A DNA stretch of 64,000 bases from an uncultured delta proteobacterium (lineage in GTDB: Bacteria > Desulfobacterota > Syntrophia > Syntrophales > Smithellaceae): the NCBI GenBank assembly GCA_963753975.1, contig CAVWEH010000005.1:192001-256000 (forward strand), read 5' to 3'. The position numbers and the translations under genes are program-made. The notes beneath the pieces are model-generated. The model saw only the letters and a program-made list of their open reading frames with translations, searched no databases and was not told the origin of the DNA. Of the stretch, positions 13,577 through 62,822 are shown piece after piece (the first letter of the stretch is position 1; the number at the start of each line of letters is the position of its first letter).

Positions 13577-13851
13577 GGGATTAATTCAACTAACGCTTCA
13601 ACTTTCGCTGCGCTCGTTTTCAGCGAGTTTTATTAATTCGGCTAACAGATATTGCTGTGCTTCGCTCGCAATATCTGAGCTTCATTAATTCGGCTAACAA
13701 ATTCCCACGTGCGACCTTTAGGTTATTCGTGTCATTTTGGAAATTTGAGGCTCATTAACCACGGGTATCTATGATACCCTCCGCCTATGGCGGGATAAAT
13801 TCAGCTAACAGATATTGCTGCTCTATGCTTGCAATATCTGGACTTCATTAA
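13577..13851 (+). repeat. Array of four structured hairpin elements between prfA and prmC
   Basis: Units 13577-13636, 13632-13688, 13684-13758 and 13792-13851, each AATTC(RRCT)AAC-stem-loop-(R)RGYYTYATTAA-like; units 1-3 share ATTAAT junctions. Confidence 0.85.
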
Positions 13852-13864
13852 ACGGATTGGAGAT

Positions 13865-14725
13865 ATGACTGTTCGGGAAATTCTAAATGAGGCAACCCGC
13901 AGTTTTGAAGCCGTCGGAATTCCGTCGGCCCGGCTCGACGCGGAAGTTTTGCTTTCTTTTTGCCTCAAGCGAGACCGTCTCGACTTTTTCAAAAACCCGG
14001 AAATACAAATCAGTAAAACTCAACTGACTGATTTCAAAAAACTTGTCGCCAGAAGAATAAAGTGGGAACCGGTAGCCTATATCACCGGGCGCAAGGAATT
14101 CTGGACATTTGTGCTGGAGGTGAATAAAGACGTCCTGATTCCCCGGCCGGATACGGAAATTATTGTGGAAGATGCCCTTAACATTTGCCGCAAGATTAAT
14201 TCTTCCGAAATAAAGATTATAGATATCGGCACGGGCAGCGGCGCGATAGCCATTGCTCTGGCCAAAGAAATGCCGCAAGCTCAAGTAGTGGCCACCGACA
14301 TTTCCACTGCCGCTCTCCGAGTAGCTCGGAAAAATGTCCTTACTCTGGGACTGAAAAATCAAATCGATTTCCGCCGCAGTGATTTATTTGACTCAATTGA
14401 TGATTTTTTTGATATAATCGTTTGCAATCCTCCCTACATTTCGGCCCAGGATTATGAAAAACTACCTCTCGGAGTGAAGGCCTTTGAGCCGCGAGAAGCA
14501 CTCTTGGCGGGCGAAAATGGAACGGAGTTTTATGAAAAATTTGTTTATCAGGCGGGTGACTATTTTAAAAAAAATGGTTGGCTTTTATTGGAGATAGGAG
14601 CTACTCAGGAAAAAAGCATATGGAAGATTGTTGAGGATTCCGGAATTTACGATAATATTGGTGTCCGAAGAGATTATGCCGGCTTGCCGCGTGTAATTCG
14701 AGCAAGGAGAAAAATTAGTGGATAA
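13865..14725 (+). CDS. prmC: Release factor glutamine methyltransferase PrmC/HemK
   Basis: [33 protein letters not shown] before ATG 13865. Confidence 0.96.
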
Positions 14726-15968
14726 AATAGTTATTCAAGGGGGCAAACCTCTGCATGGTGATGTTCATATCAGCGGAGCAAAGAATGCTGCATTGCCGGT
14801 AATGACTGCGGCGCTTCTGACCTGCGGAACCAATACTTTCCATAATATTCCCGATTTAATGGATATCAAAACAATAAAAAAACTTTTGAAGAGCCTCGGC
14901 GCCGAAATCGAAGGCAATGAAACTGTCCAGATTAGTGTCGATAAAATAATCGGCCATACGGCTCCTTATGATTTGGTCAAGACAATGCGTGCTTCCATTT
15001 TAGTTTTAGGGCCGCTCGTCGCTCGTATGGGTGTCGCGCGTGTTTCTTTACCCGGAGGCTGCGCCATCGGCGCCCGGCCGGTAAATCTGCACATCAAAGC
15101 TCTGCAGGAACTGGGAGCTCATGTGGAATTGAATGACGGCTATATCGAAGCCAAAGCCAAGAAATTGAAAGGCGCGGATATATATTTTGACATACCCACG
15201 GTAACCGGCACCGAAAATATAATGATGGCGGCAACGCTGGCCGAAGGCACAACTTCCCTGAACAATGCAGCCTGTGAGCCGGAAATTGTCAACCTGGCGG
15301 ATGTTTTAAAGGACATGGGAGCAAAAATCAGCGGAGCGGGAACGGATGTAATAACGATTGAAGGCGTCAGCTCGCTAAAACCCTGCGAAGCCACAATTAT
15401 TCCCGACCGGATTGAGGCGGGAACTTTTATGATTGCCGCCGGTATGACGCGCGGTGAATTAAACATAATCGGCTGCAACCCCCATCATCTGGAAGCCTTA
15501 ATCAACAAACTGCGGGATACAGGCATGAAGATTTCGCCTATCGAAAACGGCCTCAAGGTATCGGCGGGGAAAAAAATCAACAGCGTCGATGTGAAGACCC
15601 TTCCTCATCCGGGATTCCCCACCGACCTGCAGGCGCAGATGATGGCTTATATGTCCATAGGCAGCGGTTTGAGCGTTATTTCCGAAACCGTTTTTGAAAA
15701 CCGTTTCATGCATGTCAGCGAACTCACGCGGATGGGAGCCGATATCGTTATTCAGGGAGGCAGCGCGATTGTCCGGGGAGTGCCTCACTTGCGCGGAGCA
15801 CAAACAATGGCCACGGATTTGCGCGCTTCCGCTTCTCTGATTCTGGCGGCTCTTGTGGCGCAAGGCACGACGGAAATTTCCCGCGTTTACCATATTGACC
15901 GCGGTTATCAGGAAATAGAGAAGAAGTTTTCCGCATTGGGCGCCAATATTAAAAGGATGGCACAATAA
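14718..15968 (+). CDS. murA: UDP-N-acetylglucosamine 1-carboxyvinyltransferase
   Basis: [33 protein letters not shown]. Confidence 0.98.
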
Positions 15969-15969
15969 T

Positions 15970-17283
15970 ATGAGAATAATCAAAACCGATGCTGTTGATT
16001 TTGTCGAATTTTTTCGTAAATTGCGCCAACGGGGCGGCGCTTTTACTCCCGAACTTTTATCATCTGTAGCGGAAATAGTGAGCAATGTTGCGGCCAAAGG
16101 AGATGAGGCTCTATTTCATTATACGGCGAAATTTGACGGCCATGAATTAAATGAAAAAACAATAGAAGTGACTGCGGCTCAAAGAAAAGCAGCGCTGGCT
16201 GAGCTAAAGCCGGAAGATGGGAAAGTTATGAAACTCGCCGCCGGACGTATTGAAAAATATCATCGCCAGCAAATTATTCGAGGATGGTCGGTTAAAGATG
16301 AGAAAGGCATAGAACTTGGCCAGCGGGTTTTTCCTTTGCAGCGTGTGGGAATTTATGCTCCCGGAGGCAAAGCTTCTTATCCCTCGACGTTGCTGATGGC
16401 GGCAATTCCGGCACGCTTGGCCGGGGTGAAAGAAATTATTTTGGTAAGTCCCGTGAAAGACGGCAGATTAAATCCATTAATTGCCGCGGCGGCCGAAATA
16501 AGCGGCGTGCACCGGATATTCAAGATTGGCGGGGCACAGGCTATAGCGGCGCTCGCTTACGGCACAAAATCTGTTCCGCAGGTCGATAAAATTGTCGGGC
16601 CCGGTAATGCATATGTCGCGGCGGCAAAAAAACTGGTTTTTGGACAAGTGGATATAGATATGATCGCCGGCCCCAGCGAAATAGTTATCGTTGCCGATAA
16701 AACGGCAAAAGCTTCTTTTATTGCTGCTGATATGCTGGCGCAAGCCGAACACGATGAAATGGCGGCAGCTGTTCTTTTGACGCCTGCGAAAAATTTTGCC
16801 CGCGAAGTAGCGCAGGAAATCGACAAACAATTAAAACCCCTGACCAGAAATAAAATAATAGAAAGCGCCCTTACAAAATGCGGCGCGATTATCATCACCA
16901 AAGATATAAGGGAAGCAGTAGAGATAGTGGATCTTTTCGCACCGGAACATCTGGAATTGATGGTGGAGAATCCGACAAAAATTTTAAAACAAGTGCGCAA
17001 CGTGGGCTCTGTTTTCCTCGGGTCATTTACACCGGAGGCATTGGGCGATTACATTGCCGGCGCCAACCACATTTTGCCTACGGGAGGAACGGCGCGTTTT
17101 TCCTCACCATTGGGAGTATATGATTTTGTCAAACGTATGAACGTTCTTTCTTTTTCATCGCAGGCTTTGGAAAAACTAGGCAAACAAACGGCTTACTTTG
17201 CCCAAATGGAAGGACTCGATGCTCATGCCCATTCGGTAATCGTGAGGAATAATAATATCAAAAAAGGAAGCCAAGATGGCTGA
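15970..17283 (+). CDS. hisD: Histidinol dehydrogenase
   Basis: PGGKASYPS, GPGNAYV, DMIAGPSE, QAEHD, PEHLE, NHILPT. Confidence 0.98.
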   Translation: MRIIKTDAVDFVEFFRKLRQRGGAFTPELLSSVAEIVSNVAAKGDEALFHYTAKFDGHELNEKTIEVTAAQRKAALAELKPEDGKVMKLAAGRIEKYHRQQIIRGWSVKDEKGIELGQRVFPLQRVGIYAPGGKASYPSTLLMAAIPARLAGVKEIILVSPVKDGRLNPLIAAAAEISGVHRIFKIGGAQAIAALAYGTKSVPQVDKIVGPGNAYVAAAKKLVFGQVDIDMIAGPSEIVIVADKTAKASFIAADMLAQAEHDEMAAAVLLTPAKNFAREVAQEIDKQLKPLTRNKIIESALTKCGAIIITKDIREAVEIVDLFAPEHLELMVENPTKILKQVRNVGSVFLGSFTPEALGDYIAGANHILPTGGTARFSSPLGVYDFVKRMNVLSFSSQALEKLGKQTAYFAQMEGLDAHAHSVIVRNNNIKKGSQDG

Positions 17284-17620
17284 AGATGTTATTTATTCCG
17301 ATTCGCTAGTCGCGGTTACGAATAAAAGCATTCTTTTCCGGCGTTATGGCTTTTTTGAACGCGACAGGTTGGTGTTATTTTCCGAAATTGAAAAAATCGT
17401 CGTTAAGAAATCTTCCCTTTGGAATGGAAAATTCCGCTTCCATGGCACCGGAGATTTCAAAACGTGGTTTCCCAAGGATTTTCAGAGATACAAACGGGAT
17501 AAGATATTTTTCGCCTTCATCCGTTACAAATGGTGGCGTATAGGTTTCACAGTCGAAAACTCTGCTGCGGTTCTCAAAATATTCCGTGATAAAGGGCTGA
17601 TTAAAGACATTGATCAATAA
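17276..17620 (+). CDS. Hypothetical protein (114 aa, possibly PH-like beta fold)
   Basis: Overlaps the hisD stop with an AGGA RBS; no recognised motif. Confidence 0.6.
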   Translation: MAEDVIYSDSLVAVTNKSILFRRYGFFERDRLVLFSEIEKIVVKKSSLWNGKFRFHGTGDFKTWFPKDFQRYKRDKIFFAFIRYKWWRIGFTVENSAAVLKIFRDKGLIKDIDQ

Positions 17621-17644
17621 GTTGCACCTGCGGCAAAGTCGGGC

Positions 17645-17724
17645 ATCCCGACACGCTAAGCTATCGGGATAATTCGACCTGCAAGTTTCAGCGCGCTACG
17701 CTTCTGAAACTTGGGTCTCATTAA
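17645..17724 (+). repeat. Hairpin element copy left of tRNA-Gly
   Basis: ATCCCGA..TCGGGAT hairpin, then AAT-TC-GACC-TG-CAAGTTTCAG-loop-CTGAAACTTG-GGTC-TC-ATT. Confidence 0.85.
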
Positions 17725-17730
17725 AACACC

Positions 17731-17758
17731 TTGACAAATAAGTCCGGTTGAATAACAT
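17731..17758 (+). promoter_or_regulatory. Probable tRNA-Gly promoter
   Basis: TTGACA-16 bp-TAACAT. Confidence 0.5.
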
Positions 17759-17897
17759 TCCACACAAAATTGCGTTCATTCGGCCTACCTTTGTTGGCTT
17801 CGGCGTCGGCTTCCTCAACGCATGTTAATATGCGCCTGCGGAGCTTCCTCCTTGCTGCCGCGGTATCCCGGTGACCACAAATTAGTCATTAATATGA

Positions 17898-17972
17898 GCG
17901 GGCGTAATTCAGTGGTAGAATGTCAGCTTCCCAAGCTGGACGTCGTGGGTTCGAGCCCCATCGCCCGCTCCA
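17898..17972 (+). tRNA. tRNA-Gly (anticodon CCC)
   Basis: GCGGGCG acceptor pairs with CGCCCGC, discriminator T plus encoded CCA; anticodon loop TTCCCAA; T-loop GTTCGAG. Confidence 0.97.
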
Positions 17973-18204
17973 TTAATGAGACCCAAGTTTCAGAAGCGTA
18001 GCGCGCTGAAACTTGATGGACGAATTATCCCAGGAGCAAAGCGACGTGGGATTTGAAACTCGCTGACTATAGAAAGCGTTAGTTGTAGTGAGACCCAAAT
18101 TTCATAAGCGCAGCGTATAACCTGAAGGTCACGCGAGGTCACACACTGAAGCTTGCCGGTTGAATTATCCCGTCTAGCGGAGGTGTAATTCTACCCGTGA
18201 TTAA
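17973..18204 (-). repeat. Three hairpin element copies in reverse orientation, starting right after the tRNA CCA
   Basis: 17973-18052 (first 43 nt are the exact reverse complement of 17682-17724), short copy 18054-18086, and 18085-18204 with the loop module. Confidence 0.85.
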
Positions 18205-18299
18205 CTACTTAGCAGCTTTCAGAACGCAGAAATAATTCTTGCATTGCCTTTTATACTGTGCTACCTGATTTAGTAAGCCATCGATTATAGTGTATTGAT

Positions 18300-18324
18300 G
18301 AGTGGGCACCTGCCCACTTTTTTA
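18300..18324 (+). terminator. Hairpin plus U-tract in the rimP leader (terminator/attenuator-like)
   Basis: AGTGGGCA-CC-TGCCCACT followed by a T-run, ~15 nt before the rimP ATG. Confidence 0.65.
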
Positions 18325-18338
18325 TTTTCTGGGATATT

Positions 18339-18833
18339 ATGAATGATGCTTTAAAGGAAAAAATCAGACAATTGGCCGAGCCGGTTGCCGCATCGGAAGG
18401 AATGGATTTAATCCATGTTGAATGCGTCAAGATGCAAACTCGCTGGATTGTCCGGCTCTACCTGGATAAAGAAAATGGGGTTACTCTTGACGATTGCACG
18501 GCCGTGAGCAATCAGTTAGGCGATGTCTTTGACATTAATGATCTGCTTAAAGGCGCTTACACACTGGAGGTCTCCTCTCCCGGCTTTGATAGGCCGATAT
18601 CGCGCGATCAGGATTTCGAAAAATATAAAAGATCAAGGGTAAACATCAAGACGGGAGCAAAAATCGAGGGCATGCGAAATTTTCGTGGTACGCTTGTTGA
18701 TTACATCGAAGAACAAGGCCGGAAAATAGTTTTGATGGATATCGCGGGAAAAGCGTACCGGATCCCGCGAGGTGAGATTATCAAAGCCAATCTTGCCGCT
18801 GACGATGAAATTAGGAGTAAAAGCGGGAAATAA
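18339..18833 (+). CDS. rimP: Ribosome maturation factor RimP
   Basis: VRLYLDK..GVTLDDC, YTLEVSSPG.DRP; precedes nusA. Confidence 0.97.
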   Translation: MNDALKEKIRQLAEPVAASEGMDLIHVECVKMQTRWIVRLYLDKENGVTLDDCTAVSNQLGDVFDINDLLKGAYTLEVSSPGFDRPISRDQDFEKYKRSRVNIKTGAKIEGMRNFRGTLVDYIEEQGRKIVLMDIAGKAYRIPRGEIIKANLAADDEIRSKSGK

Positions 18834-18895
18834 TGCCGGCGGGCTGAAATTTTTACGATATCTCAGCGAAGTGAAGAAAAGGGAGGAATTTGTAA

Positions 18896-20161
18896 ATGTT
18901 GCCAGAACTTAAACGTCTGATCGAGCAGATGGGCAAGGACAGAGGTATAGAGAAAGAGATCATTACCGAAGCCCTGGAAGCGGCAATGCTTACGGCAGCG
19001 CGCAAAAAATTAGGGCAAAACGTCGATATTGAAGCCCACTATAATGACGAAGCTGGTGAAATTGAAGTTTTTCAATTCAAAACCGTCGTAGATAAAGTGC
19101 TTGATCCGGAAACCCAAATTTCCAAAGAAGAAGCGAGAAAAACTCTGGATGAAGGCGCCGAACCAGGCGATAGTTTAGGGATGAAAATCGAAACAAGTTC
19201 CTTTGGCCGAATCGCCGTACAAATGGCGAAGCAAATAATTATTCAACGAGTTAAAGACGCGGAACGTGATAACATTTATGAAGAATATAAAGACCGCAAA
19301 GGCGAATTGCTCAATGGATTTGTTCAACGATTTGAAGGCGGTAGCATTATCGTCAATCTGGGACGCGCGGAAGGCGTCGTGCCTCCGGCGGAACAAATCC
19401 ATCGCGAAACTTATAAACGAGGCGAAAGAATACGCTCTTATATTGTCGATGTAAAAAAGAATACCAAAGGGTCACAAATAATCCTGTCCCGCACGCATCC
19501 TGCCTTTTTAAGAGCACTTTTTGAAGTGGAAGTCCCGGAAATTTCCGAAGGGCTTATTGATATTGTCAGTGTTGCCCGGGAGCCGGGAAAGCGCGGAAAA
19601 ATTGCGGTCAGCGCAAAGGACAAGGATATTGACCCGGTAGGCGCCTGTGTCGGCATGAGGGGTTCACGGGTGCAAAGCGTGGTGCAGGAATTGCATGGGG
19701 AGAAAATTGATATTATTCCTTACACCAATGATGCGGCAAAATATGTCAGCAGCGCCCTATCTCCGGCTAAAGTTAATCGTGTCTTCGTTGATGACGAAAA
19801 CCGGACGATGACGGTAATCGTTCCCGATGATCAACTATCTTTAGCCATTGGTAAAAACGGCCAGAATGTGAGGCTTGCGGTAAAGCTGACCGGATGGAAG
19901 ATTGATGTAAAAAGCGAAACAATGGCCGCGGAAAAAGTCGAGGAAGGACCAACGGATTTAACAAAACTTACCGGGGTGGGACCGGCTATGGCGGAAAAAC
20001 TCTACAGCTCCGGCATCAAGAGCATTGCCATGATTGCAGCAGCTGAACCCGAGTTACTATCTTCAATTCCCGGCGTAGGTGAAAAAACAGCCCGACAATG
20101 GATTGAGGCAGCGGGTAAAATTTTAGACGAAGAAGCTCTGAGCAATAAAAAAGTTTCATAG
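18896..20161 (+). CDS. nusA: Transcription factor NusA with C-terminal HhH domain
   Basis: FGRIA, AREPG, DPVGACVG.RGSR, SLAIGKNGQNVRLA. Confidence 0.98.
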   Translation: MLPELKRLIEQMGKDRGIEKEIITEALEAAMLTAARKKLGQNVDIEAHYNDEAGEIEVFQFKTVVDKVLDPETQISKEEARKTLDEGAEPGDSLGMKIETSSFGRIAVQMAKQIIIQRVKDAERDNIYEEYKDRKGELLNGFVQRFEGGSIIVNLGRAEGVVPPAEQIHRETYKRGERIRSYIVDVKKNTKGSQIILSRTHPAFLRALFEVEVPEISEGLIDIVSVAREPGKRGKIAVSAKDKDIDPVGACVGMRGSRVQSVVQELHGEKIDIIPYTNDAAKYVSSALSPAKVNRVFVDDENRTMTVIVPDDQLSLAIGKNGQNVRLAVKLTGWKIDVKSETMAAEKVEEGPTDLTKLTGVGPAMAEKLYSSGIKSIAMIAAAEPELLSSIPGVGEKTARQWIEAAGKILDEEALSNKKVS

Positions 20162-20198
20162 TTTCAGAACTGATAATTTAATTTAGGGAGTCTTGCGC

Positions 20199-22745: not shown

Positions 22746-22789
22746 TAATCGGAATTTCTTTTTAATCTGAATGGTCACGGAAAAGCTTT

Positions 22790-38077: not shown

Positions 38078-38476
38078 ATGAAAGTTTTTCCGGAAGATCT
38101 GCTATATAGTCGCGAGCACATATGGGTGCGGGTTGACGGGAATATGGCCACTATCGGGGTTACTGATTATGCTCAAGAAAGTCTAGGGGAAATTCTATCG
38201 GTTGAATTTACAGAAATTGATACTTATGTAGAACGTGACGAAACATTTGGTTCCATCGAATCCACTAAAACGGTGGTGGATTTAATCTCTCCCGTTAGCG
38301 GGACTGTGGTAAATATTAATGAAGATATTAACGACGATATAGGCATAATAAACAGTGACCCTCATGATATGGGGTGGTTGGTTGTTATGGAAATGGACGA
38401 CCCGGAACAATTAGAAGACCTCCTCGTTGCCACTGCTTATCATGATTTTATAATGCAGGAAGAGGAAAGCGATTAA
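38078..38476 (+). CDS. gcvH: Glycine cleavage H protein (lipoyl carrier)
   Basis: YSREHIWV, IGVTDYAQ, ESTK with lipoyl Lys, INSDP..GW. Confidence 0.93.
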   Translation: MKVFPEDLLYSREHIWVRVDGNMATIGVTDYAQESLGEILSVEFTEIDTYVERDETFGSIESTKTVVDLISPVSGTVVNINEDINDDIGIINSDPHDMGWLVVMEMDDPEQLEDLLVATAYHDFIMQEEESD

Positions 38477-38558
38477 TGAAACTCAAATTTCAAAAGCCAA
38501 GCGCTGCGGGATATCTTGCGTCAGATACGCCACTCTTTGCAGCAGGAAGGATCACTTT

Positions 38559-40539: not shown

Positions 40540-40621
40540 TTAATGAGACTCCAATATGACAAGTGAAGCGCAGTCAGATTGGTTAGCCGAATTAATCCCA
40601 CGCGCGAAGCTTAGCGGGGGT
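40540..40621 (-). repeat. Hairpin element copy between hisC and rpsU
   Basis: TTAAT-GA-GACT-CCAATATGAC-loop-GTCAGATTGG-TT-AGCC-GA-ATTAA, then an ATCCC..GCGAAGC..GGGGT hairpin. Confidence 0.85.
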
Positions 40622-43036: not shown

Positions 43037-43130
43037 ATCCCGAATCGCTTCGCTTACGGAATTGATCCCGCCTGCAGCGGGATCAATTCCACTAATCCAA
43101 TAGCCGGAGGCTATGGGAAGTTTCATTGAT
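43037..43130 (+). repeat. Hairpin element copy between convergent holA and the NYN gene
   Basis: Perfect 14-bp stem 43058-43090 overlapping ATCAAT-TC-CACT-AA-TCCAATAGCC-GGA-GGCTATGGGA-AGTT-TC-ATTGAT. Confidence 0.8.
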
Positions 43131-52639: not shown

Positions 52640-52885
52640 TATTTTTCCTCAACCAGTTTGTACTGATAGTAATCATCGGCCCGGTTTTTCGGTATTTCGA
52701 TGATTTTTCCATATCGTCGCATAGCCATGACCCATCTTAGTCACTTCCGGAGACGGACAATTTAGCTTCTGAGCAATTTCGGGAATGGTCCTTGGCCCAC
52801 CCTTCAATGTCTCGGTCACTCTGTCCTGCATATACATTTCATCTCTCAAAACTTCAGCCAAGTTTCGCTGTGTCTTTCTTCTCAT
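52639..52885 (-). pseudogene. Small winged-helix protein; 1 frameshift
   Basis: GPRTIPEIAQKL...EVTK/WVMAMRRYGKIIE...YQYKL; shift near 52735. Confidence 0.65.
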
Positions 52886-54612
52886 CCAATACCTCTTTCG
52901 CCAGAGCATCAATCATCGAGTTCAACCTGTTTGTTGGTGTATCCTTCCACGGAAATAGCCTGATACGGACAGACCGGAATACAGGCCCCTTCGCCTTTGC
53001 ATAGAACCGGGCTTACTCTGGCCACTTGTCTTTTCTCCCATTTCGACAATTTCGATGGCCTCATAAGGGCAGACCTTCTGACATTCACCGCACCAGGTAC
53101 AAAGGTCTGTCTCCACCCTGGCGACCAGGGGTTCCAGATCGACATAGCCTTTCAGGAGGAGAGCCGCTGTCTTGGAAACGGCAGCCATGGAGCTGGCCAC
53201 GCTCTCGGCCAGGTTTTTCGGCCCCTGCGAGGCTCCGGCGATAAACACCCCATCCAATACCGTCTCCACCGGCCTGAGTTTGGGATGAATTTCGTTAAAG
53301 AAACCATCCTTCCCCACCGGAAGTTTCAGAACATCTATCAATTCCGCATTTTCCCGCGGCACCATGCCGGTAACCAGAACTAACAGGTCGGAGTCTATCT
53401 CGACTTCCTCACCTCCCGTTAACCGGTCTTTCACTTTTACTATCAGTCTTCCATCAGCCGAATTTACCTGGGGCGGCGCATCCTCCCCAAAGCACAGAAA
53501 TACAGATCCTTGGGCAAGAGCCTGCTCATACAACAGTTCATATTTGCCATAGGTCCGGATATCGCGAAACAGATGGAATTGGTGGATACTTTTATCAATC
53601 TCCTGGGCGCAAGTAGCTGCATAATTGGCAGCGCTGCAGCAATAACGGGAGCAGTAAAGATGGGGGTTCATCGGTTTTGGTATTCTCCCGGGAACCCACA
53701 CAATAGATATAGGTGATAGTTTTAATCTCTCTGCCCTGATACCTGATAGTCCCGTTGCTTCCGGCTAATAATTCTTCGATATTCCGGCAATGTCACAACT
53801 CCATTCAACCCATACCCGAACTCTCCGGCCTGGGGATTATATGTCTCAAATCCGGTAGCGACAATAATACTGCCCACCTTCAGAGATAAAGTATCTTTTT
53901 CACCGATCCGCATCTTGATGGAAAAGTCGCCTATATGGCCGTTCTTTTCGATCAATTCGGCATTGGTAAAGAGAGTAATATTTTCCCGTTGGCGAACCTT
54001 TTCCAAAAGCGAATCGATGATCTCGCGGCCATTTTTATTATTGGGGAACAATTTACCCCAGCGGCCCACCATACCCCCGGCCTGCGGCGACTTTTCTATC
54101 AAATGCACCCCGATGCCGATATCGGATAAAGCTAAAGCCGCCCGCAGTCCGGCTACGCCGGCCCCGATAACCAGAGCATGGGACAGAGTTTCCACGCGCA
54201 ATTTTTCCAAAGGCACTGCCAGCGATGTTCGCGCCATTCCGGCCCGGATAAGCCGAAGGGCTTTTTCGGTGGCCGCTTTTTTATCGTGAGTATGCGCCCA
54301 GGAACACTGCTCCCGCAGATTAACCTGGGTATATTCATATTGATTGAGACCTGCTCTCTGGGCCATCGCCCGAAAAGTATTTAAGTGGAGTTTGGGCGAA
54401 CAAGAAGCGATAACAATGCCTTCCAGCTTCTTTTCCTGGATTTCTTTAATGATATTTTGCTGGGCGGCATCCGAACAGGTAAACATATTGACCTGCGCCG
54501 TTGCTACAGAAGGTTCTTTCTCCACCAACTCCCGCAATTTATCCGTATCCACATAATCCGAAATATTACCGCCGCAGTGGCAAATGAACACTCCCAGTCT
54601 TTTCTCTGTCAT
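52854..54612 (-). pseudogene. hdrA: HdrA-family flavoprotein (~580 aa); 4 frameshifts
   Basis: GVFICHCGGNIS, SCSPKLH, NLREQCSW, GAGVAG, CVGSR, CSRYCC, HPKLRPVET, C-terminal ferredoxin motifs. Confidence 0.8.
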
Positions 54613-57327
54613 GACCGGCCTCCCGCTTTTTTGAGATAGGCCGCTATCTGAGCGGCTGCGGCGCCGGAATGCAGAATCGTGTCCGGAATATCCCGCGCGG
54701 CCGAAGCTGAGCCGATCACGAAGACTCCGTCAATGCTGGTCTTGCCCGGTTCCAGGTCTTCATCGACTTCTTTAATAAAGGAAAACGCATCTGTTTCCAG
54801 CCGACTGTCCTTAAACAGGCCCACTGCGCCCTGCGCCGGAAGCATGCCCACCGAAAGGACAACCAGATCGTGCTTGGCCTGCTTTAGACCGCCCCTCGCC
54901 TTCGATATCCTCATAATTGACCACCAGGTCCTGATCGTCCGTCTCCTCGATCCGGGCGACTTTGCCTTTTACAAAATAAACTCCCATCCCTTTAGCCTGC
55001 TGGTAAAACTCTTCATAGCCTTTACCGAAAGGAGCGAATATCAATGTAATAAATGGTAATATCGGCCAGCGGCAGCGCTCCCATCAGAAGCTGGGCTTGC
55101 TTCAGGGAATACATGCAGCAGACCCTGGAACATAGCCGGTTATTGACCTGTTCATCCCGGGAACCGACGCAGAGTACAAAAGCAACATTGCTGGGCGCTT
55201 TTCCGTCCGACGGCCGAACGACGGCGTTATAAGGCCTGGTCGGAGATAAAATGCGGTCCATCTGAACGGCGTTAATGACATTAGGAAATCGACCAAAGCC
55301 CAGAGCCGGCTTTATGATGGGCATCGAAGGCCTCAAAACCCGTCGCTATTGCCACGGAACCCACTGAGACCGTCTGCCGCTCGGTCTTCATATCCAAAGA
55401 AATTGCTCCGGCGGGACAGGTGGATACGCACTGCCGGCACTGTGAACATCCGCCGCAATCCAGGCAGCGGTTGGCGCTGTAACGGGCTTCCTCTTCAGTC
55501 ATTGTTTTTTCATAATTCGATAAATGAATTCAATCGCTCCCCGATCGGTTTTTTCTCCAGCTTGACCGGATTACGAGGCGTTATACTGTTCCTTGATTGC
55601 TCGACTATTGTATCGCGGTCCACCATCTCCGGCCTTTCATCGAAGCGGACTGAATCGAGGCCGAGCCCCTGAAGATACCGGTCAATGTAAAAGGCTGCCC
55701 TTTTACCTTGACCGATGGATTTAACAATCATCGATGGGCCGGTAACGGCGTCTCCTCCGGCAAAGACATTGGGAATAGAGGTTTGCAGTGTTTCGGCATT
55801 GGCCTTGATGGTCCCATTCCGGTTGAGCTCGATTTCCTTGGAGAATGCAGATGTGTTGGGAGTGAGCCCGATGGCCATTATCACCTTATCGGCCGGCATG
55901 GAAGTCCGTCTGGTTTCATCAAAAGCCGGATTGAATTTTCCATCCTTATCAAAAACCGAGGAACAGCAAACAAACTCCAGTCCGGTTACCTTTTGGCCGT
56001 CATCCAGTATCCGTTTGACGCCCCAGGAGCAGCTCAAGGTTGACGCCTTCCTCCACCGCCTCCTGGACTTCCCATTTATGGGCCGGCATCTCTCCTTCGG
56101 ATTCCAGGCAGACCAATTGGACCTTTTGAGCTCCGAGCCGCACTGCGCTGCGGGCACAATCTATAGCCACGTTGCCGCCGCCGATGACCACTACTGTTTT
56201 GCCCTTCACATCCGCCGGAAAATCCGCAGATCAGGCTGATGCAGGAAATCCATGCAATCATAAACATCCGGGAGTTCCTCACCCGGGATCGACATCTTAC
56301 GACCGCCTTTACTGCCTATAGCCAGGAATATCGCATCGAAACCCTGTTTTTGAAGTTCTGACAAAGAATAAACTTTAGAATTGATTTTAATCTCTACGCC
56401 CAGAGCAGTAATATTCTTGATATCGCGCGCCAGTATGGCTTTAGGTAAGCGGTAAGCCGGTATGCCCCAGCGCATGACTCCGCCCGCCTCGGCTTCCGAT
56501 TCAAAAATAGTCACCGAATATCCTGCGCGGGCCAGAAAATAAGCGGCGGAAAGACCGGTCGGACCCGAACCGACGATAGCCACTTTCTTTCCGTTCAGTT
56601 TTTGCGGCGGTCCATATTCCGGTTCAGGGTGGTTTTCATAGTAGCGGTCGACCATGAACCTTTTAATTCCTCTGATGGAAACATTGCCGTCCAGCAAGCC
56701 CCGGGAGCATTCATCCTCACAGGGTGCATAGCAGGCCCGGCTCAAACAGCCCGGAAGAGGCGCATCTTCAAGGTGCTGGCGAAAGGCCTCATCATATTTT
56801 CCCGAACGCACCAGGGAGACATATCCATGAGGCTTGACTCCGGCGGGACAGGTATAGGAGCATGGCGATGTTCCCAACCTGTCGATTACCGCTTTTTTAG
56901 GGACGGCCTGAGGGAAAGCGATGTGGGCCGCCCGGCGGGCGATTAAATCGGAGTTGAATTCATCAGCTTGAGCAACAGTACAGGTTTCTTCACACTGAGC
57001 GCAGCCGGTACATTTTGCCAAGTCCACAAAAGTAGGTTTCCTGTGCAGATCAACCAAAAAACCGCCTTCTTTTCCGGCGATAATTTTGTCAACTTCAGAG
57101 TAAATGAGCGTTTTTACATTAGGATGATTGGCGGTAGCGGCCATCTTGGGTGTAGAGATGCAACTGGCGCAATCGAGAGTGGGGAATACTTTGCTGAGCA
57201 AAATCATTTTCCCGCCGATGCTGGCCTCTTTCTCCACCAGGAGTACTTTGAAACCCATATCACCCAGGGTTAAGGCCGACTCCATTCCGCCGATTCCGGC
57301 GCCAACTACCAAAACATCATAATCCAT
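54609..57327 (-). pseudogene. hdrA: Large HdrA-family protein with inserted GltD/NfnB-like NAD(P)H module (~900 aa); 6 frameshifts
   Basis: GAGIGG, KVFPTLDC, CSRACYAPCE, GSGPTG, GGGNVAID, RCLDCGGC, CVGSR, CSRVCC spread over seven ORF pieces. Confidence 0.8.
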
Positions 57328-57768
57328 CTATTGCTTCTCCGCTTTTTTCTGAGATGCAGAGGTTATTTCGCCCAGAGTTTTACAAAAACTATTAATATGA
57401 CTCACGAAAGCCTGGGAACAGACCGAACAAATAGCCGCCATTTTCAATCTGCGGGAGTCGTATCCATTCTCTCCCAATAGCTCTTGCGCTTGTTCTACCA
57501 CTTTCCCGGTGCGTTCAGTGCAATCCGGAATGTAGGCACAATCGGTGCCGTCAGCGGCAATAAAAACACCATCGAAACCGGCCTTCAGGGCATGCAGCAC
57601 CCATCGCGGGTTGATTCCGCTGGAGCAAGGGACGGCAATTACCTGCACCGACGTCGGATAGTCCATATGCGAACTGCCGGCCAGGTCAATACCGACATCG
57701 GAGATATTATTGGTCGAGAAAACCAGTATTTTGGGTTGGATTTTGCTTAACTGCCTGATGCCGGTCAC
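57328..57768 (-). CDS. MvhD-like hydrogenase Fe-S subunit
   Basis: PKILVFS, VPCSSG, GFDGVF, DC, RRL...ICSVC; abuts hdrA. Confidence 0.8.
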   Translation of the reverse strand: MTGIRQLSKIQPKILVFSTNNISDVGIDLAGSSHMDYPTSVQVIAVPCSSGINPRWVLHALKAGFDGVFIAADGTDCAYIPDCTERTGKVVEQAQELLGENGYDSRRLKMAAICSVCSQAFVSHINSFCKTLGEITSASQKKAEKQ

Positions 57769-58025
57769 TATTTTCCTCTTTTAACAAATATATGCCAGAC
57801 ACCGGCTTCCTGAATCAGGCCGAGGTATTCATGTCCTACTTTCTTAGCCCAGAGCGGAATGTCCTCAGTAGTGCCCTCATCGGATGAAAGCACTTCCATT
57901 ATCCCCGCCATGGGCACGGCAGTCATTTCTCTTTTAGCCTCCAGCAGGGGGCCGGGACAGGCAGTGCCTCTGGCATCTACCGTCTTGTCAATCTTGAGTT
58001 TCTTAAGCTCTTCCGTATTCATCAT
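57768..58025 (-). CDS. tusA: TusA-family sulfur carrier
   Basis: DARGTACPGP, D.G...DIP.W. Confidence 0.9.
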   Translation of the reverse strand: MMNTEELKKLKIDKTVDARGTACPGPLLEAKREMTAVPMAGIMEVLSSDEGTTEDIPLWAKKVGHEYLGLIQEAGVWHIFVKRGK

Positions 58026-58075
58026 ATCCTCTCTATTTTTAATCGAAATTTAAAATCTTCTTAGACTTGAAAGTA

Positions 58076-58417
58076 TTACATTCGCGCTTTGGATAAGTCC
58101 TGGCCGGTTTTATTTACTTCTTCGACCATGGCCTTACGGACAGTCTCGCAGCATTCTTTAAAAACAGGAGTCGTCAAGCGGTAGGTTACCGTTTGTCCAT
58201 CTCTTTGTGCCCTCACAATCGACTGCTCCTTCATCAGGCGCAGATGCTGGGAAGTATTTTGTAGAGTCATTTCCAGCGCCGAAGCAATCTCCGTTACCGT
58301 CTTGGGACCTTCCCCCAGCAAGTCCATAATCATCAGGCGTTTGGGATTGGCCAGCACACTTAGCATATTGGCCTGCAACTCGTAGGCTCTCGATTTTTCC
58401 GGATCAAGTTTCGTCAT
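58076..58417 (-). CDS. ArsR/SmtB-family transcriptional repressor
   Basis: LANPKRL.I, SQHLR, R.GQ...Y; CC pair in the C-terminal helix. Confidence 0.9.
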   Translation of the reverse strand: MTKLDPEKSRAYELQANMLSVLANPKRLMIMDLLGEGPKTVTEIASALEMTLQNTSQHLRLMKEQSIVRAQRDGQTVTYRLTTPVFKECCETVRKAMVEEVNKTGQDLSKARM

Positions 58418-58433
58418 AATTTCTCATCTATCC

Positions 58434-58971
58434 TTATATAAATAAGGTCATCCGACTGCGGTCGGCCGAATCGATGAAGGTAGCTACACCGCCGTAACCG
58501 ATATCAGCAATAAGCTCTTCCTTCCGGATGCCCATTACATCCATGGACATAGTGCAGGCGATAAACCGGACTCCCTGTTCCTGAGCCGATTTAATGAGAC
58601 TTGGGAAGGTCATATACATTTTTCTTAGTCATTTCTTTCTTCATCAGCAGCGTGCCCAGACCACCCATGTTCATTCTGGAGAGGGTCAATTTGGAGGGAC
58701 CTTTAGGCATCATCCAGCCGAACATTTTTTCCATGAAACTTTTTGCCCCGGTCAAATTTACCGGGCCTTCTCTCCTGAGCACATTCAATCCCCAGAAGGT
58801 AAAGAACATGCTCACCGGTAAATCCATAGCTGCAGCTCCGTTGGCAATAATGAAAGCCGCCAGTATTTTGTCCAGATCACCGGAAAATACAACCATGGAA
58901 AGTCCGCTTATCTCCTGCGATTCCTCTTTAATTGGTAATTTAGCTGTAAGGCCTCCCCGTTTTTCTGTCAT
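58434..58971 (-). pseudogene. DsrE/DrsH-like (DsrE2) sulfurtransferase; 1 frameshift
   Basis: FSGDLDK...ANGAAA...FFTFWG...LSRMNMGG then IACTMSMDVMGI; extra base in CTTCCCAAGT near 58603. Confidence 0.8.
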
Positions 58972-59081
58972 CTCACACTCCTTTATGGTTTGGCGATAGC
59001 CTTAGCTATAGCCATCCGGCTGAGAAATAGTTTCGTAATACCCCTGAATACCGTATTCTGTCGGTACGAGGTGCTACTGTT

Positions 59082-59151
59082 CAATAATTAATTAATTGCA
59101 TAATAATGCAACTTATTAAGTATTGATATATCTGCTTGCGCATACTGTCAA
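59082..59151 (-). promoter_or_regulatory. Promoter/operator region of the dsrE-arsR-tusA-hdr operon
   Basis: TTGACA on the minus strand at 59146-59151; downstream palindromes ACTTA-T-TAAGT and TTGCAT-AATA-ATGCAA. Confidence 0.45.
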
Positions 59152-59453
59152 GTTTTTTTTAATTCTTCCCCCAGGAAAAGATAGTATCCGAGTCAAATAG
59201 GCAATAATGAAGAAGAAAAAGTAAAATAACGGGAAGAGCACGGAGTTAACGATAGTATTCCATTCTTCAGAATCAACTAAAAGCCTTGTTGGCAACCTTC
59301 TGCTTTAATGTGGTATTATGTAAATCAGTTAAATACTGGGGAGGAAGTTAATAACTGCTCCGGCATCGCCTGTTATGCTTAAACCATTATTCAGAAGAGC
59401 CATACATTGCCGGAATTTTTTGCCGGCTGGAAAAAATTCCTTTGGAAGCGGCG

Positions 59454-60356
59454 TTACTCGTCTTTCTTATAATAGTTCGCCCATTTCGTATCGATCTGCC
59501 TCTGGATGTCCGCGATCTGGGCGTCAGTGAGAATCCTGAAGCGTGACTGCGCGCGGAAGTATTCCCGCACCGGCACGAGCTTGCGTTTTTCCACAAGCTT
59601 TTCGGAAGCTGCCGTCAGTTTGAATTCGCCGTTGACGATCTCGTAGAGGTCATAGTATCCGGTTTCCACGGCGAGTCGTCCGATCTTTATCCCGTATCGC
59701 GGATCATATCCCCAGCCCGGCGGGCAGGGAATATGAATATGGAAGTATTTGGTGCCCGGTAGATCAACGCACTTTCGAATCTTGTCGAATAGGTCCAACG
59801 GGTAGGCAGCAGAACAGGTGGCAACATAACTTAAATTGTGCGCCGCCATGATGGCCGGAACATCCTTTTTTTGCTGCAACTTTCCTTTGAACGGTGTGTT
59901 GGCGGTTATAGCACCGATAGGGGTTGTGCTCGAGCGTTGAGCACCGGTGTTCATATACCCTTCATTATCGTAGCACAGGTAGATGAAGTTATCGCCACGT
60001 TCCGCCGCGCCCGATAAAGCCTGCAAGCCGATGTCGCTTGTCCCGCCGTCGCCGGCCCAGGCGGCCACTTTGATACTGGTTTTTCCCTGCGATTTCAGAG
60101 CAGCTAGAATTCCTGTAGCTGCTGCCGCCGTGGAGGCAAATGTTACATTTAAACAGGGGAGTTTGGTTGAGGCAATCGGGAAAAGCCCCTGCAATACCGT
60201 AAGACAGCTCGGCGGCACGATCAGGATGGTATCTTCCCCCAGCGCCTTGAGACCAACCCGGTAGGCGATGGCTAGGCCGCAGCCGGTACATGCCCTTGTT
60301 CCCGGATGGACAAATTCTTCTGTCGGTAAATTTAAAATGGTGGTCTTTCCCTGCAC
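59454..60356 (-). CDS. porB: 2-oxoacid:ferredoxin oxidoreductase beta subunit
   Basis: ACTGCG, GDGGTSDIG, DNEGYMNTG.QRS, PCPPGW. Confidence 0.9.
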   Translation of the reverse strand: MQGKTTILNLPTEEFVHPGTRACTGCGLAIAYRVGLKALGEDTILIVPPSCLTVLQGLFPIASTKLPCLNVTFASTAAAATGILAALKSQGKTSIKVAAWAGDGGTSDIGLQALSGAAERGDNFIYLCYDNEGYMNTGAQRSSTTPIGAITANTPFKGKLQQKKDVPAIMAAHNLSYVATCSAAYPLDLFDKIRKCVDLPGTKYFHIHIPCPPGWGYDPRYGIKIGRLAVETGYYDLYEIVNGEFKLTAASEKLVEKRKLVPVREYFRAQSRFRILTDAQIADIQRQIDTKWANYYKKDE

Positions 60357-60365
60357 TTGATTCTC

Positions 60366-61565
60366 CTATAATTTTAATCCAATCCACACGGGCTCTTTGG
60401 CGATGCGGCTTTTGGTCGCATCGCGGAGGATTTGTGTCAAATTTTCTGTCCGGATTTCGCGGCCGCCGATTCCCGCGATAAAGTTCTGAACCGGAGGCAG
60501 ACTGCCGGTGCCGGCAAGATGTTCGTAAAGCGCGGACTTTAAATCCGACACCAGCGCTCCTTCATAACCGTAGCTAAGTGCCTTTTCAAAAACAAATACG
60601 CCTTTTCTTCCTTTGAGCGCTTTGGCCAGCGCCTTGTCCGGGAAAGGCCGGTAAAAGCGAACACCTATGACGCCTACTTTGATTCCTTCTTTTCTTAAGG
60701 CATCCGCAGAAACGCGTAGCTGGTAGGTGAGCGACCCGAGTCCCACGGCAACATACTGGGCATCATCGCAACGATAAGGCTCGATATATGGGTCACCGCT
60801 CCGGCCAAATATCTCCGCAAATCTTTTTTCCGCTTTGAGAACGACGGCGAGCGCTGTTCTCATTTCTTCATGCAGCAGATACCGGATCTCCATATATCCG
60901 TGGGCAAGCTCGCCTCGGATATCCATGCGGACATCAGGTAAAGTCACGGTATTGAGATTGGCGGGTTTCTCCGGGTTCAGGGCATAGTCCGGCCGGAAAG
61001 GCGGCAGAAATTCATCGACTTGTTTCTGATCCGGCACATCAAACGGCATGTAAGTGTGAGAAAGGATATAACCGTCGTAGCAGACCATAATCGGGATACC
61101 GACCTTCTCCGCCAGCCAGTAGGCCTTGATGACGGAATCAATGATCTGCTGATGGTCAGCGCAATAAATCTGGATCCAGCCGGTATCGCGCTGCGAAATC
61201 GAGTCCTGCTGATCATTCCAGATATTCCAGGGAGCGCCTACCGCCCGGTTGACGACACACATCACAATGGGGAGCCTGGCGCCTGCCGCCCACTGGACCT
61301 GCTCATGCATGAACAGAAGTCCGTTGGCGCTCGTCGCGGTAAAAGTCCGGGCGCCGGCCGAGGAGGCCGCAATGCACACGGCCAGCGCAGAATGTTCGCT
61401 TTCGACCGGGATGTACTCGGCTTTCATTTCACCTGCTTCCACATACTCGGAAAGTCTTTCGGTAAGAGGGGTCTGCGGTGTAATCGGATAGGCCGCGATG
61501 ACATCAGCATGACAAAGTTTGACGCCCAGTGCTGCGGCCACGTTTCCATTTTCGATAATCTGCAC
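60366..61565 (-). CDS. porA: 2-oxoacid:ferredoxin oxidoreductase alpha subunit
   Basis: AYPITPQT, ESEHSA, TATS, NRA, FYRPFP. Confidence 0.9.
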   Translation of the reverse strand: MQIIENGNVAAALGVKLCHADVIAAYPITPQTPLTERLSEYVEAGEMKAEYIPVESEHSALAVCIAASSAGARTFTATSANGLLFMHEQVQWAAGARLPIVMCVVNRAVGAPWNIWNDQQDSISQRDTGWIQIYCADHQQIIDSVIKAYWLAEKVGIPIMVCYDGYILSHTYMPFDVPDQKQVDEFLPPFRPDYALNPEKPANLNTVTLPDVRMDIRGELAHGYMEIRYLLHEEMRTALAVVLKAEKRFAEIFGRSGDPYIEPYRCDDAQYVAVGLGSLTYQLRVSADALRKEGIKVGVIGVRFYRPFPDKALAKALKGRKGVFVFEKALSYGYEGALVSDLKSALYEHLAGTGSLPPVQNFIAGIGGREIRTENLTQILRDATKSRIAKEPVWIGLKL

Positions 61566-61570
61566 CGTGT

Positions 61571-61879
61571 CTACTCCTTATCTTCTTCCGAAAACCGAGC
61601 CTCGTCGACCATGGTGATGGCTTTGGTCGGACATTCTTCAGCGCAGATGCCGCACCCCTTGCAGTATTCGAGGTCGACTTTCGGTGGTATCGTCCTGGAG
61701 ATGACAACTTCCGGACAGAAGAGCCAGCACATAAAACAGGCCTCGGCATTTCTTTTGCACGGTATGCAGAGGCTTGTATTCAATACCGGCCGCTCCACCC
61801 TCCATGATCCGGTCCTTCCTCCATCGCCCGGCCCTGCTTCGCTGTGGGAAGTTTTTCTCCTGTAATTTCTGGTGCCCAT
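61571..61879 (-). CDS. porD: 2-oxoacid:ferredoxin oxidoreductase delta (ferredoxin) subunit
   Basis: TGSWR..RP, CWLFCP, CKGCGICAEECP. Confidence 0.88.
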   Translation of the reverse strand: MGTRNYRRKTSHSEAGPGDGGRTGSWRVERPVLNTSLCIPCKRNAEACFMCWLFCPEVVISRTIPPKVDLEYCKGCGICAEECPTKAITMVDEARFSEEDKE

Positions 61880-61881
61880 TT

Positions 61882-62442
61882 TTATCCTCCGGTCACAGTT
61901 CGTTCAAAGGCAATCTTTGCCGCCAATGAGTTCTTTTCGGGCCCTCGTGTCTCGAATTCCTCTTCAATGCCTTTGATCAGAATATCTATTCCCAGGAAGT
62001 TCGCCGCTTTTGCCAGCGATCCGATTATCCCTGTATTCACCATACCGTGAGGAAGGCCCGCCTCAACCGATATAGCCGTAATGTCTGCAGTTGCCAGCCT
62101 GTAATCCTTAAAGTCGTAGTATTCAAAAGACTTTGGCGTGTTCAGAACGATGACCCCGCCGGGCCTGAGGCCGCGCGTTACATCCACCTCGGCCAAAAGC
62201 AGATGATCAAGGACGACAATGATATCCGGGGTCTCGATGGGCGATAAATCATATATTTTCTGTCTGGAAATCTTCAGCGATGTCATGACGGGTGCACCCC
62301 GGCGCTCCGTGCCGAATGTCGGAGCCATGACAACTCCGGAATAGCCGGAGACGAAGGCAGCTCCCGCAACTATTTTTGCCGCCGTTATTGCGCCCTGTCC
62401 GCCTCGTCCATGCCAACGGATTTCGATAAATTCCTTGTTCAC
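61882..62442 (-). CDS. porG: 2-oxoacid:ferredoxin oxidoreductase gamma subunit
   Basis: EIRWHGRGGQGA, FGTERRGAPV, VNT. Confidence 0.9.
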   Translation of the reverse strand: MNKEFIEIRWHGRGGQGAITAAKIVAGAAFVSGYSGVVMAPTFGTERRGAPVMTSLKISRQKIYDLSPIETPDIIVVLDHLLLAEVDVTRGLRPGGVIVLNTPKSFEYYDFKDYRLATADITAISVEAGLPHGMVNTGIIGSLAKAANFLGIDILIKGIEEEFETRGPEKNSLAAKIAFERTVTGG

Positions 62443-62547
62443 GACTACATCCTGGTCTTAATTCTCACCTAATGTTTATGCCGAAATTCCAGCGATTTCT
62501 TGCCGGCGATTCCGAATCACAAGCATGAACCCCGAAAGTTTGCGACT

Positions 62548-62636
62548 CATTACAACTTACCAATTCCGACGTGTGACTTCTTGTGACCTTCAGGTTATTA
62601 GGTTATACGTTCCGGTTGCGGGATTGGAGTTTCACG
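62548..62636 (+). repeat. Hairpin element copy carrying the loop module
   Basis: AACT-TA-CCAATTCCG...GTGACCTTCAGGTTA...CGGGATTGG-AGTT-TC. Confidence 0.7.
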
Positions 62637-62733
62637 AATAAAAAGGCCATGGCTTTTTCATCCACGGCCTGGAAAACATTTCTGACATCCGGAATAACAA
62701 ACAAGTGAATCTTTGAAATTATCTCGTTGCCCT

Positions 62734-62822
62734 ATCCCGACATGCGCCATAGGCTAAGTAATTCAACTAGTCGCTATTAACGCACCGTGTTAATATTCCA
62801 GCTCATTAAATGAGCTAGAATA
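62734..62822 (+). repeat. Degenerate hairpin element copy, or terminator-like hairpin after the 5'-nucleotidase
   Basis: ATCCC...AATTCAACTAG...TATTAAC-loop-GTTAATA...AGCTCATTAA, overlapping AGCTCATT-A-AATGAGCT. Confidence 0.45.

What the first reader, a model, noticed from the sequence alone, without database searches (positions are those of the whole stretch)
13577..62808. Dispersed family of structure-conserved bulged hairpins (~11-12 copies at 5 loci) with compensatory covariation
Seen: loci are 13577-13851, 17645-18204, 40540-40621, 43037-43130 and 62548-62808. They share the architecture AAT-TC-N4-[2-nt bulge]-~10-bp stem-loop-stem'-N4'-TC-ATT, often preceded by an ATCCC...GGGAT hairpin. 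Stem sequences differ completely yet still pair: CAGATATTGC/GCAATATCTG, CAAGTTTCAG/CTGAAACTTG, CCAATCTGAC/GTCATATTGG, TCCAATAGCC/GGCTATGGGA. The N4 helix also covaries (GGCT/AGCT, GACC/GGTC, AACT/AGTT), as does the outer helix (ATTAAT versus ATCAAT/ATTGAT). On one strand the TC/TC mismatch reads GA/GA and several loops contain GCGAAGC, GCGCAGC or GCGTAGC. Established: tandem sheared G.A pairs and d(GCGNAGC) mini-hairpins are unusually stable in single-stranded DNA, and HUH transposases (IS200/IS605 TnpA, RAYT) and integron integrases read bulged ssDNA hairpins. Inference: a non-autonomous element selected for ssDNA (or RNA) structure and spread by an enzyme encoded elsewhere. It lacks the GTAG foot of classical REPs and the terminal GTTRRRY of attC, so it may be an undescribed class.
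Basis: partly seen in the sequence, partly recalled or inferred. Interest (0 to 1): 0.8.

Follow-up and report, generated by a model that had tools for sequence, protein, structure and literature searches.

The report
Nested hairpin cassettes on IS200 remnants
These hairpins are copies of a tiny gene-less DNA element that comes and goes between the genes of Smithella-type bacteria, and it is likely a stripped-down IS200 insertion sequence whose extra two-hairpin module likely jumps by itself into earlier copies, although no enzyme that would move it was found in this genome.

Summary
The window has about 12 copies of a 54-nt bulged hairpin (A); the genome has about 230 at 132 intergenic loci. 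Covariation is strong (17 of 20 pairs change on both sides). The family occurs in 67 of 97 Smithellaceae genomes, 4 Bacteroidota genomes and 8 viral contigs, and many sites are empty in close relatives.

One form ('founder') is A joined to IS200 left-end and right-end remnants. It sits 3' of TTAT (29 of 35 copies), the site its AATA guide predicts under a pairing rule that held on autonomous IS200 ends. The form that dominates the window is a 78-nt module of A plus a second hairpin (B). It has no target motif and lies cleanly inside earlier copies (17 cases).

No Y1 transposase exists in this assembly, IS200 TnpA does not track copy number, and none of 82 autonomous IS200 loci carries A. The mover is therefore inferred, not found.

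Verdict: a new variant of PATE-type gene-less IS200 derivatives, with an unexplained mobile dumbbell module. The scan noted this family before in other windows of this genome, and one note also read it as IS200-like.

The parts
13797..13850 (-). A hairpin (54 nt), unit 1 of locus 1, AT-type
13758..13796 (-). B hairpin plus short right-end module after unit 1 (IS200 left-end-like GGGTAT stem; ends TGGT)
13688..13757 (-). A hairpin, unit 2, carrying an 18-nt E mini-insert at 13708-13725
13634..13687 (-). A hairpin, unit 3 (52-nt tandem period)
13582..13635 (-). A hairpin, unit 4, subtype with a second GA/GA tandem in its stem; the only unit at this site in G224
13557..13581 (-). B hairpin closing locus 1 (prfA-prmC spacer)
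17646..17723 (-). 78-nt A+B module upstream of tRNA-Gly; G209 has a second 78-nt A+B inserted in its foot
17974..18051 (+). 78-nt A+B module starting 1 nt after the tRNA-Gly CCA
18052..18085 (+). short-stem A variant interrupted at the G of its 3' GA by the next unit
18086..18201 (+). A hairpin with E inserts (18118-18142), then B and a right-end module ending TGAT
38474..38498 (+).
40541..40619 (+). A+B module between hisC and the next (rpsU-like, by eye) gene; G224 has further units 5' of it
43037..43128 (-). shortened A unit followed by two B-type hairpins, downstream of holA
62516..62637 (-). decayed founder element: GT-type A with E inserts, truncated nested unit, right end; target TTAT at 62638-62641
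62734..62808 (-). diverged A+B module

Best explanation
The hairpins are modules of a gene-less mobile DNA family that likely folds and moves as single-stranded DNA and likely descends from IS200 insertion-sequence ends, moved by a Y1 transposase (TnpA) that would have to act in trans. Shown: the founder form (about 90-140 nt) is A hairpin + B hairpin + IS200 left-end and right-end remnants; it lies 3' of TTAT, and empty sites keep the TTAT. Inferred: TnpA peels the GA strand out as a circle and pastes it 3' of TTAT, chosen by the AATA guide. A sits exactly at the cut site and can stay there only because its two feet pair and keep the cut site next to the guide, which would select for the covariation. 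Shown: a 78-nt A+B module lies cleanly inside earlier copies. Inferred, and weaker: A+B folds as a nicked dumbbell, is excised as a closed dumbbell and reinserted into exposed feet of resident hairpins, which builds the nested arrays; the enzyme is TnpA at relaxed sites or something unknown.
For: IS200 left-end profile: 9 of 17 genome hits lie within 200 nt of arrays (2.8% of the genome), all 9 on the GA strand, best E 5e-6; 2 hits in shuffled DNA; it also hits 8 of 17 Bacteroidota loci. The guide rule held for 53 of 55 right ends and 46 of 61 left ends of autonomous IS200 copies. Founders: TTAT in 29 of 35 copies against a 1.1% intergenic background. One copy with guide AATT lies 3' of TTAA and has a canonical right end (G000 C5:305841). 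Empty orthologous sites keep TTATT, as does an empty paralogue in G242 (L327 against L260). 40 of 76 and 21 of 52 orthologous comparisons are empty. GNA/ANA triloops in 103 of 114 A loops and 19 of 28 24-nt B hairpins; such mini-hairpins are far more stable as DNA than as RNA (PMC13037366, passages). No orientation bias to genes, 49/40/22/21. B has a modal length of 24 nt (77 of 146). Removing A+B restores the resident module in 17 of 144 cases.
Against: No Y1 gene in G000 (95% complete), G111 or G177. IS200-type TnpA is present in 4 of 27 high-copy and 22 of 70 low-copy genomes. None of 82 autonomous IS200 loci carries A. The founder right end is TGAT/TGGT, 8 nt beyond the canonical TCAT, with no clear guide. 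Two filled/empty pairs fit a cut one base 5' of TTAT^T better. Lagging-strand bias is not significant: founders 15:6, p=0.08; AT-type 15:15. AT-type units, which dominate the window, have no tetranucleotide target and often lack the IS200 hairpin. A.C mismatches outnumber G.T on the GA strand, 57 to 33. Guide-target covariation across A rests on one non-AATA copy.
Confidence: 0.6

Rival explanations
1. The A hairpin is the recognition site of a different, still unidentified strand-transfer enzyme (host or mobile). A and A+B are the true mobile units, and the IS200 ends are just one of several hairpin hosts they invaded.
For: A+B inserts into A feet at two fixed registers 3 nt apart. It also sits inside an unrelated repeat (CAGT type after GCGG in 8 of 11). 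Fixed 54+24 geometry with a 2-nt bulge. Lineage-specific insertions in genomes without Y1.
Against: A is nearly always followed by TCC, the IS200-like left-end start (326 of 372). No enzyme gene was recurrently flanked by A among the Y1, GIY-YIG, Y2 and integrase loci examined. Founder targets follow the IS200 rule.
Confidence: 0.2
2. A short GIY-YIG single-strand nuclease of the Ssn type binds and nicks the hairpins, and copies spread by repair or transformation, as for the Neisseria NTS repeats.
For: B resembles the CCC..GCGAAGC..GGG hairpin of NTS. One YazA-like GIY-YIG gene in G000 ends next to a copy.
Against: That gene is in 81 of 97 family genomes, including those with no copies, and only 2 of its 30 fetched loci have an A copy directly beside it. 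True SsnA-like genes in relatives carry their own NTS-type repeats and no A; none of that type was seen in G000. No CGTC foot.
Confidence: 0.07
3. No dedicated enzyme now acts: old IS200 remnants amplify by slippage, template switching and recombination between ssDNA hairpins, and quasi-palindrome correction, not selection, makes the covariation.
For: Tandem 52-, 78- and 93-nt repeats; deletions between ATCCC repeats; no enzyme found.
Against: Clean insertions at new TTAT sites; near-identical recent copies in another phylum; mismatches and the bulge persist rather than being corrected; one subtype replaces two Watson-Crick pairs with a second GA/GA tandem.
Confidence: 0.08
4. A structured RNA element (terminator, mRNA stabiliser or small RNA) kept for a host function.
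For: Intergenic; often follows T-rich terminators, stop codons or tRNAs.
Against: No orientation bias to transcription; DNA-type triloops; patchy copy number of 0-161 within one family; no Rfam match.
Confidence: 0.05

Closest known systems
PATEs / ends-only non-autonomous IS200/IS605 derivatives (PMC7290912, PMC10055086, passages)
   Same: Gene-less; IS200 left- and right-end hairpins on one strand; insertion 3' of an AT-rich tetranucleotide predicted by the guide; target kept in empty sites.
   Different: Extra 54-nt bulged hairpin at the cut site; right end extended 8 nt; hundreds of copies in nested arrays; a separately mobile 78-nt module; no cognate TnpA in several high-copy genomes.
REP / BIME / REPIN with RAYT (PMC8266576, PMC3733652, passages; PMC3116915, listing only)
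   Same: High-copy intergenic bulged ssDNA hairpins in mosaic arrays, presumed HUH-driven.
   Different: No GTAG/CGTC foot; arrays are co-oriented and nested rather than inverted pairs; RAYT-like genes in these genomes carry their own inverted repeats, not A.
Ssn nuclease / NTS (SRM) repeats (PMC11893778, abstract and first quarter of Results)
   Same: Strand-specific hairpin repeats with GCGAAGC-like loops.
   Different: No CGTC foot; no flanked GIY-YIG gene; that system exists separately in relatives.
Integron attC sites (recalled)
   Same: Strand-selected ssDNA hairpin with extrahelical bases and variable stem sequence.
   Different: No RYYYAAC/GTTRRRY boxes (the bulge is TT in only 26 of 70 copies); no cassette genes; no intact integron integrase in G000.
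Small dispersed repeats (SDR) of Nostoc
   Same: Tiny mobile repeats that nest in hairpins, enzyme unknown.
   Different: By recall about 20-30 nt; closer to the E mini-insert than to A.

Membership tests
IS200/IS605 non-autonomous derivative (PATE) | Subterminal hairpins homologous to the ends of an autonomous IS200/IS605 element, on one strand | tested here: met
   (founder form; left-end hits 9 of 9 on the GA strand)
IS200/IS605 non-autonomous derivative (PATE) | Insertion 3' of a specific tetranucleotide that stays in the empty site | tested here: met
   founders TTAT in 29 of 35; empty sites
IS200/IS605 non-autonomous derivative (PATE) | Left target predicted by the guide 5' of the hairpin | tested here: met
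   AATA predicts TTNT, matched in 17 of 19 with three registers allowed; rule checked on autonomous ends
IS200/IS605 non-autonomous derivative (PATE) | Right cleavage site predicted by a right guide | tested here: inconclusive
   the end is TGAT/TGGT, beyond the canonical TCAT; several candidate guides
IS200/IS605 non-autonomous derivative (PATE) | The same target rule applies to the A+B (AT-type) module | tested here: not met
   TTNT in 25 of 131 AT-type units at new sites; no dependence on the right-end module
IS200/IS605 non-autonomous derivative (PATE) | Cognate TnpA in the same genome | tested here: not met
   none in G000; 4 of 27 high-copy genomes
IS200/IS605 non-autonomous derivative (PATE) | Preference for the lagging-strand template | tested here: inconclusive
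   founders 15:6, p=0.08; AT-type 15:15
IS200/IS605 non-autonomous derivative (PATE) | TnpA-dependent excision as an ssDNA circle | not testable with these tools
   needs biochemistry or raw reads; only contigs of relatives were available
REP/RAYT | GTAG (or CGTC/GTGG) foot 5' of the hairpin | tested here: not met
   column counts and flank logos
REP/RAYT | RAYT gene flanked by the repeat | tested here: not met
   A lies near only 2 RAYT-like genes (L059, L110), and both have their own inverted repeats
Ssn/SRM | Short GIY-YIG gene flanked by the repeat | tested here: not met
Integron attC | R-box pair RYYYAAC/GTTRRRY and a cognate IntI | tested here: not met
Rfam structured RNA | Match to a curated covariance model | tested here: not met
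   only tRNAs at the gathering score in the window and at E<=1 in three loci

The most novel reading that the evidence does not exclude
The 78-nt A+B module is a parasite of its own: a covalently closed single-stranded DNA dumbbell, capped at both ends by GNA mini-hairpins, with no gene and no sequence target. An undescribed or host strand-transfer enzyme inserts it into the feet of other folded hairpins, and it crosses phyla and reaches phages by riding IS200 remnants.
Probability: 0.2. Interest if true: 0.85.

Novelty: new variant of a known kind. Interest (0 to 1): 0.55.

Why it matters
How REP-like repeat families arise and spread is still open. Here the founder form keeps readable IS200 ends with a testable guide-target rule, so it links ends-only IS200 elements to high-copy mosaic repeat arrays. 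It predicts that TnpA tolerates a large closed hairpin at its cut site. The 78-nt module gives a small, fully defined ssDNA substrate for finding whichever enzyme builds nested arrays in genomes that lack a Y1 transposase.

Tried and rejected
Enzyme hunts without a positive result: Y1_Tnp in G000, in 10 chosen genomes and in 97 family genomes; GIY-YIG; IS91 Y2, in 1 of 5 genomes; tyrosine recombinases. The copies beside xerC occupy one shared site at the upstream gene's stop codon, so they are no sign of Xer involvement. Recurrent neighbours of 138 loci and genes between close copies were housekeeping or unrelated.

No match in the plasmid or GenBank phage collections and no right-end motif in viral contigs. 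The covariance model over 151 phylum genomes found only the own family and one sister family.

Reading the opposite (TC) strand as an IS200 right end, because it ends in TCAT/TCAC, was rejected: the guide fits only one of five subtypes. The idea that the outer helix is a target-guide pairing was not upheld, since empty sites were mixed. A K-turn reading was rejected because the bulge is 4 bp away from the GA tandem.

Sequencing runs: no RNA holder listed and no close DNA holder; contigs of relatives gave no usable junctions. The G124 replichore test on 3-kb flanks was uninformative, 14 of 30, so a test on long stretches of that genome remains open. The Nostoc SDR paper is not held. No supplementary files were read; lists of PATEs or REP families in them could bear on novelty.
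Full report
Observation. Read on the 'GA strand', unit A is 54 nt: a 4-bp outer helix, a GA/GA tandem, a 4-bp helix, a 2-nt 3' bulge, a 10-bp stem and a 12-nt cap. The cap holds a 2-bp mini-stem closed by a GNA or ANA triloop in 103 of 114 copies. A model from 72 copies finds 11 hits in the window at E<=1. On 69 distinct copies, 95% of cells pair and 17 of 20 pairs change on both sides; the score is 0.56 against 0.22 shuffled and at most 0.10 with partners slid. The shuffle ignores relatedness, and the GA tandem and length were fixed by my patterns. Rfam gives only tRNAs.

Distribution. G000 (95% complete, 6 contigs) has 236 profile hits at E<=0.1 in 132 loci. Arrays are almost all co-oriented and show no bias to gene direction (49/40/22/21). 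A strict pattern finds 0-161 copies per genome in 67 of 97 family genomes, and 1-2 hits in 5 of 181 other genomes of the order. Of 80 titled records from the genome scan, 75 are Smithella, Smithellaceae, Syntrophaceae or deltaproteobacteria. Four of the five Bacteroidota hits are real copies and one is chance. Those four genomes hold 1-6 copies; in the three with 4-6 copies the flanking genes look native by eye. A random sample of that phylum gave 1 further, chance-like hit in 400. Nine stretches on 8 viral contigs carry it. A sister family has a 56-nt variant.

Mobility. At prfA-prmC, G000 has four units, G240 two, G224 one and G209 none. Against 1.93 Mb of four close relatives, 40 of 76 comparisons from G000 and 21 of 52 in reverse are empty (these are pairs, not unique loci). 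G209 has an extra 78-nt unit inside the window's copy at 17646-17723.

Founder form. The longer form starts with a GT-type A and continues with hairpin B, a GGGTAT stem, one or two CCCC-GC-TT-GC hairpins and a fixed end CCCGTGAT. An IS200 subfamily found in these genomes and in 82 metagenome and viral loci has nearly the same left end and right end, on the same strand. Its left-end profile hits 17 places in G000 against 2 in shuffled DNA; 9 lie beside arrays, all on the GA strand. IS200/IS605 elements insert 3' of a tetranucleotide chosen by a guide 5' of the hairpin (PMC5027513 and PMC8266576, passages). I recalled the IS608 cross-pairing indices and tested them: they hold for 53 of 55 right ends and 46 of 61 left ends, many misses being mis-parsed rows that were kept in the count. 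The founder guide AATA predicts TTNT; 22 of 35 founders have TTAT in register, 29 with a one-base-shorter start, against 1.1% background. Empty sites keep TTATT, including a paralogous pair in G242. One G000 copy with guide AATT follows TTAA and ends in a canonical TTCAT. A lies exactly between the target and TCCC, the counterpart of the IS200 start TCTC.

Window form. Most window copies are AT-type. Of 249 AT-type units in my loci, 118 lie at defined places inside earlier copies; the 131 at new sites have only a weak T preference. B has a modal length of 24 nt and a GNA loop in 19 of 28 G000 cases. A+B is thus 78 nt, and its would-be circle junction is complementary to the A-B joint, which makes a dumbbell (seen directly in the sequence; that it circularises is inference). 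Removing A+B restores the resident module in 17 of 144 cases, at two registers 3 nt apart in the foot of A. GCGNAGC mini-hairpins are much more stable as DNA than as RNA (PMC13037366, passages). Against the GA strand as the folded one, A.C mismatches outnumber G.T 57 to 33, partly from one subtype.

Enzyme. Not found. G000 has no Y1, no Y2 and only a fragment of an integron integrase. IS200-type TnpA occurs in 4 of 27 genomes with 20 or more copies and in 22 of 70 with fewer; 6 of the 27 have no Y1 hit at all. None of 82 autonomous IS200 loci carries A. RAYT-like and SsnA-like genes in relatives have their own repeats. The GIY-YIG gene beside one copy is near-universal in the family. Lagging-strand bias is inconclusive.

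Mechanism. Most likely (0.6), an ends-only IS200 derivative acquired a closed hairpin at its left cut site and was spread in trans by a transient TnpA. Closure of A would keep the target and guide together, which would explain the strict pairing. A+B then became separately mobile and built the nested arrays. IS200 ancestry and TTAT targeting are shown for the founder; the catalytic steps, the role of A and the circular A+B intermediate are inferred. The main rival (0.2) is an unknown enzyme that reads A itself.

Known versus new. Ends-only IS200/IS605 elements (PATEs) are known (PMC7290912 and PMC10055086, passages). The founder meets three of the PATE tests, two are inconclusive, and the cognate-enzyme test fails; the A+B module fails the target test. 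REP/RAYT, Ssn and attC membership fail. Searches, and passages of PMC3733652, showed no description of this family; supplements were not read and most subscription papers are not in the library. Five earlier notes of this scan describe the same family in this genome, one as IS200-like; I read them after reaching the IS200 reading, and they are not independent support. Verdict: real, mobile, a new variant of a known kind, interest 0.55.

Noticed in passing
window 13708-13725, 18118-18142 and about 62583-62604; genome-wide: An 18-21-nt mini-element (E) inserts into the loops of A and of unrelated hairpin families and into itself; 87 motif hits in G000, 26 of them far from A copies.
   Followed up: partly
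window 17779-17870: A different ~100-nt imperfect hairpin repeat just upstream of tRNA-Gly, absent at the orthologous site of G209; relatives of it host CAGT-type A+B insertions elsewhere.
   Followed up: partly
G000 C1:152430, C2:343470, C2:467625, C5:520000, C5:596363, C6:4369: A 60-61-nt insert (F) at a fixed place in the stem of one A subtype; present or absent between G000 and G240.
   Followed up: partly
L003 1405-1850 (G000 C5:719.3k): Short GIY-YIG gene between a duplicated 5' part of a tRNA-Ser gene and the intact tRNA; the same layout occurs in Bacteroidota loci L343, L346, L358.
   Followed up: no
L002 1480-1835; L047: Short GIY-YIG gene flanked and truncated by its own CCCCGTTAG inverted repeats.
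   Followed up: no
L039, L041, L043, L348, L356: SsnA-like genes flanked by NTS-type repeats at one orthologous site in several Smithellaceae.
   Followed up: partly
G000 C2:524378 and orthologues in G124, G177, G035: The stop codon of the gene upstream of xerC is the first three bases of an A unit, with different subtypes at the same site in different genomes; 4 of 78 G000 units overlap a stop codon.
   Followed up: partly
G000 C4:307570-307908: About five tandem copies of a 93-nt A+B+right-end unit, absent in G240.
   Followed up: no
G000 C1:303993-304078, C5:497610-497678, C4:368017-368043: Another IS200-like ends-only family without A, ending in AGAGCTTCAA.
   Followed up: no
G658: About nine near-identical IS200 tnpA copies, most with the same internal TAG stop.
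   Followed up: no
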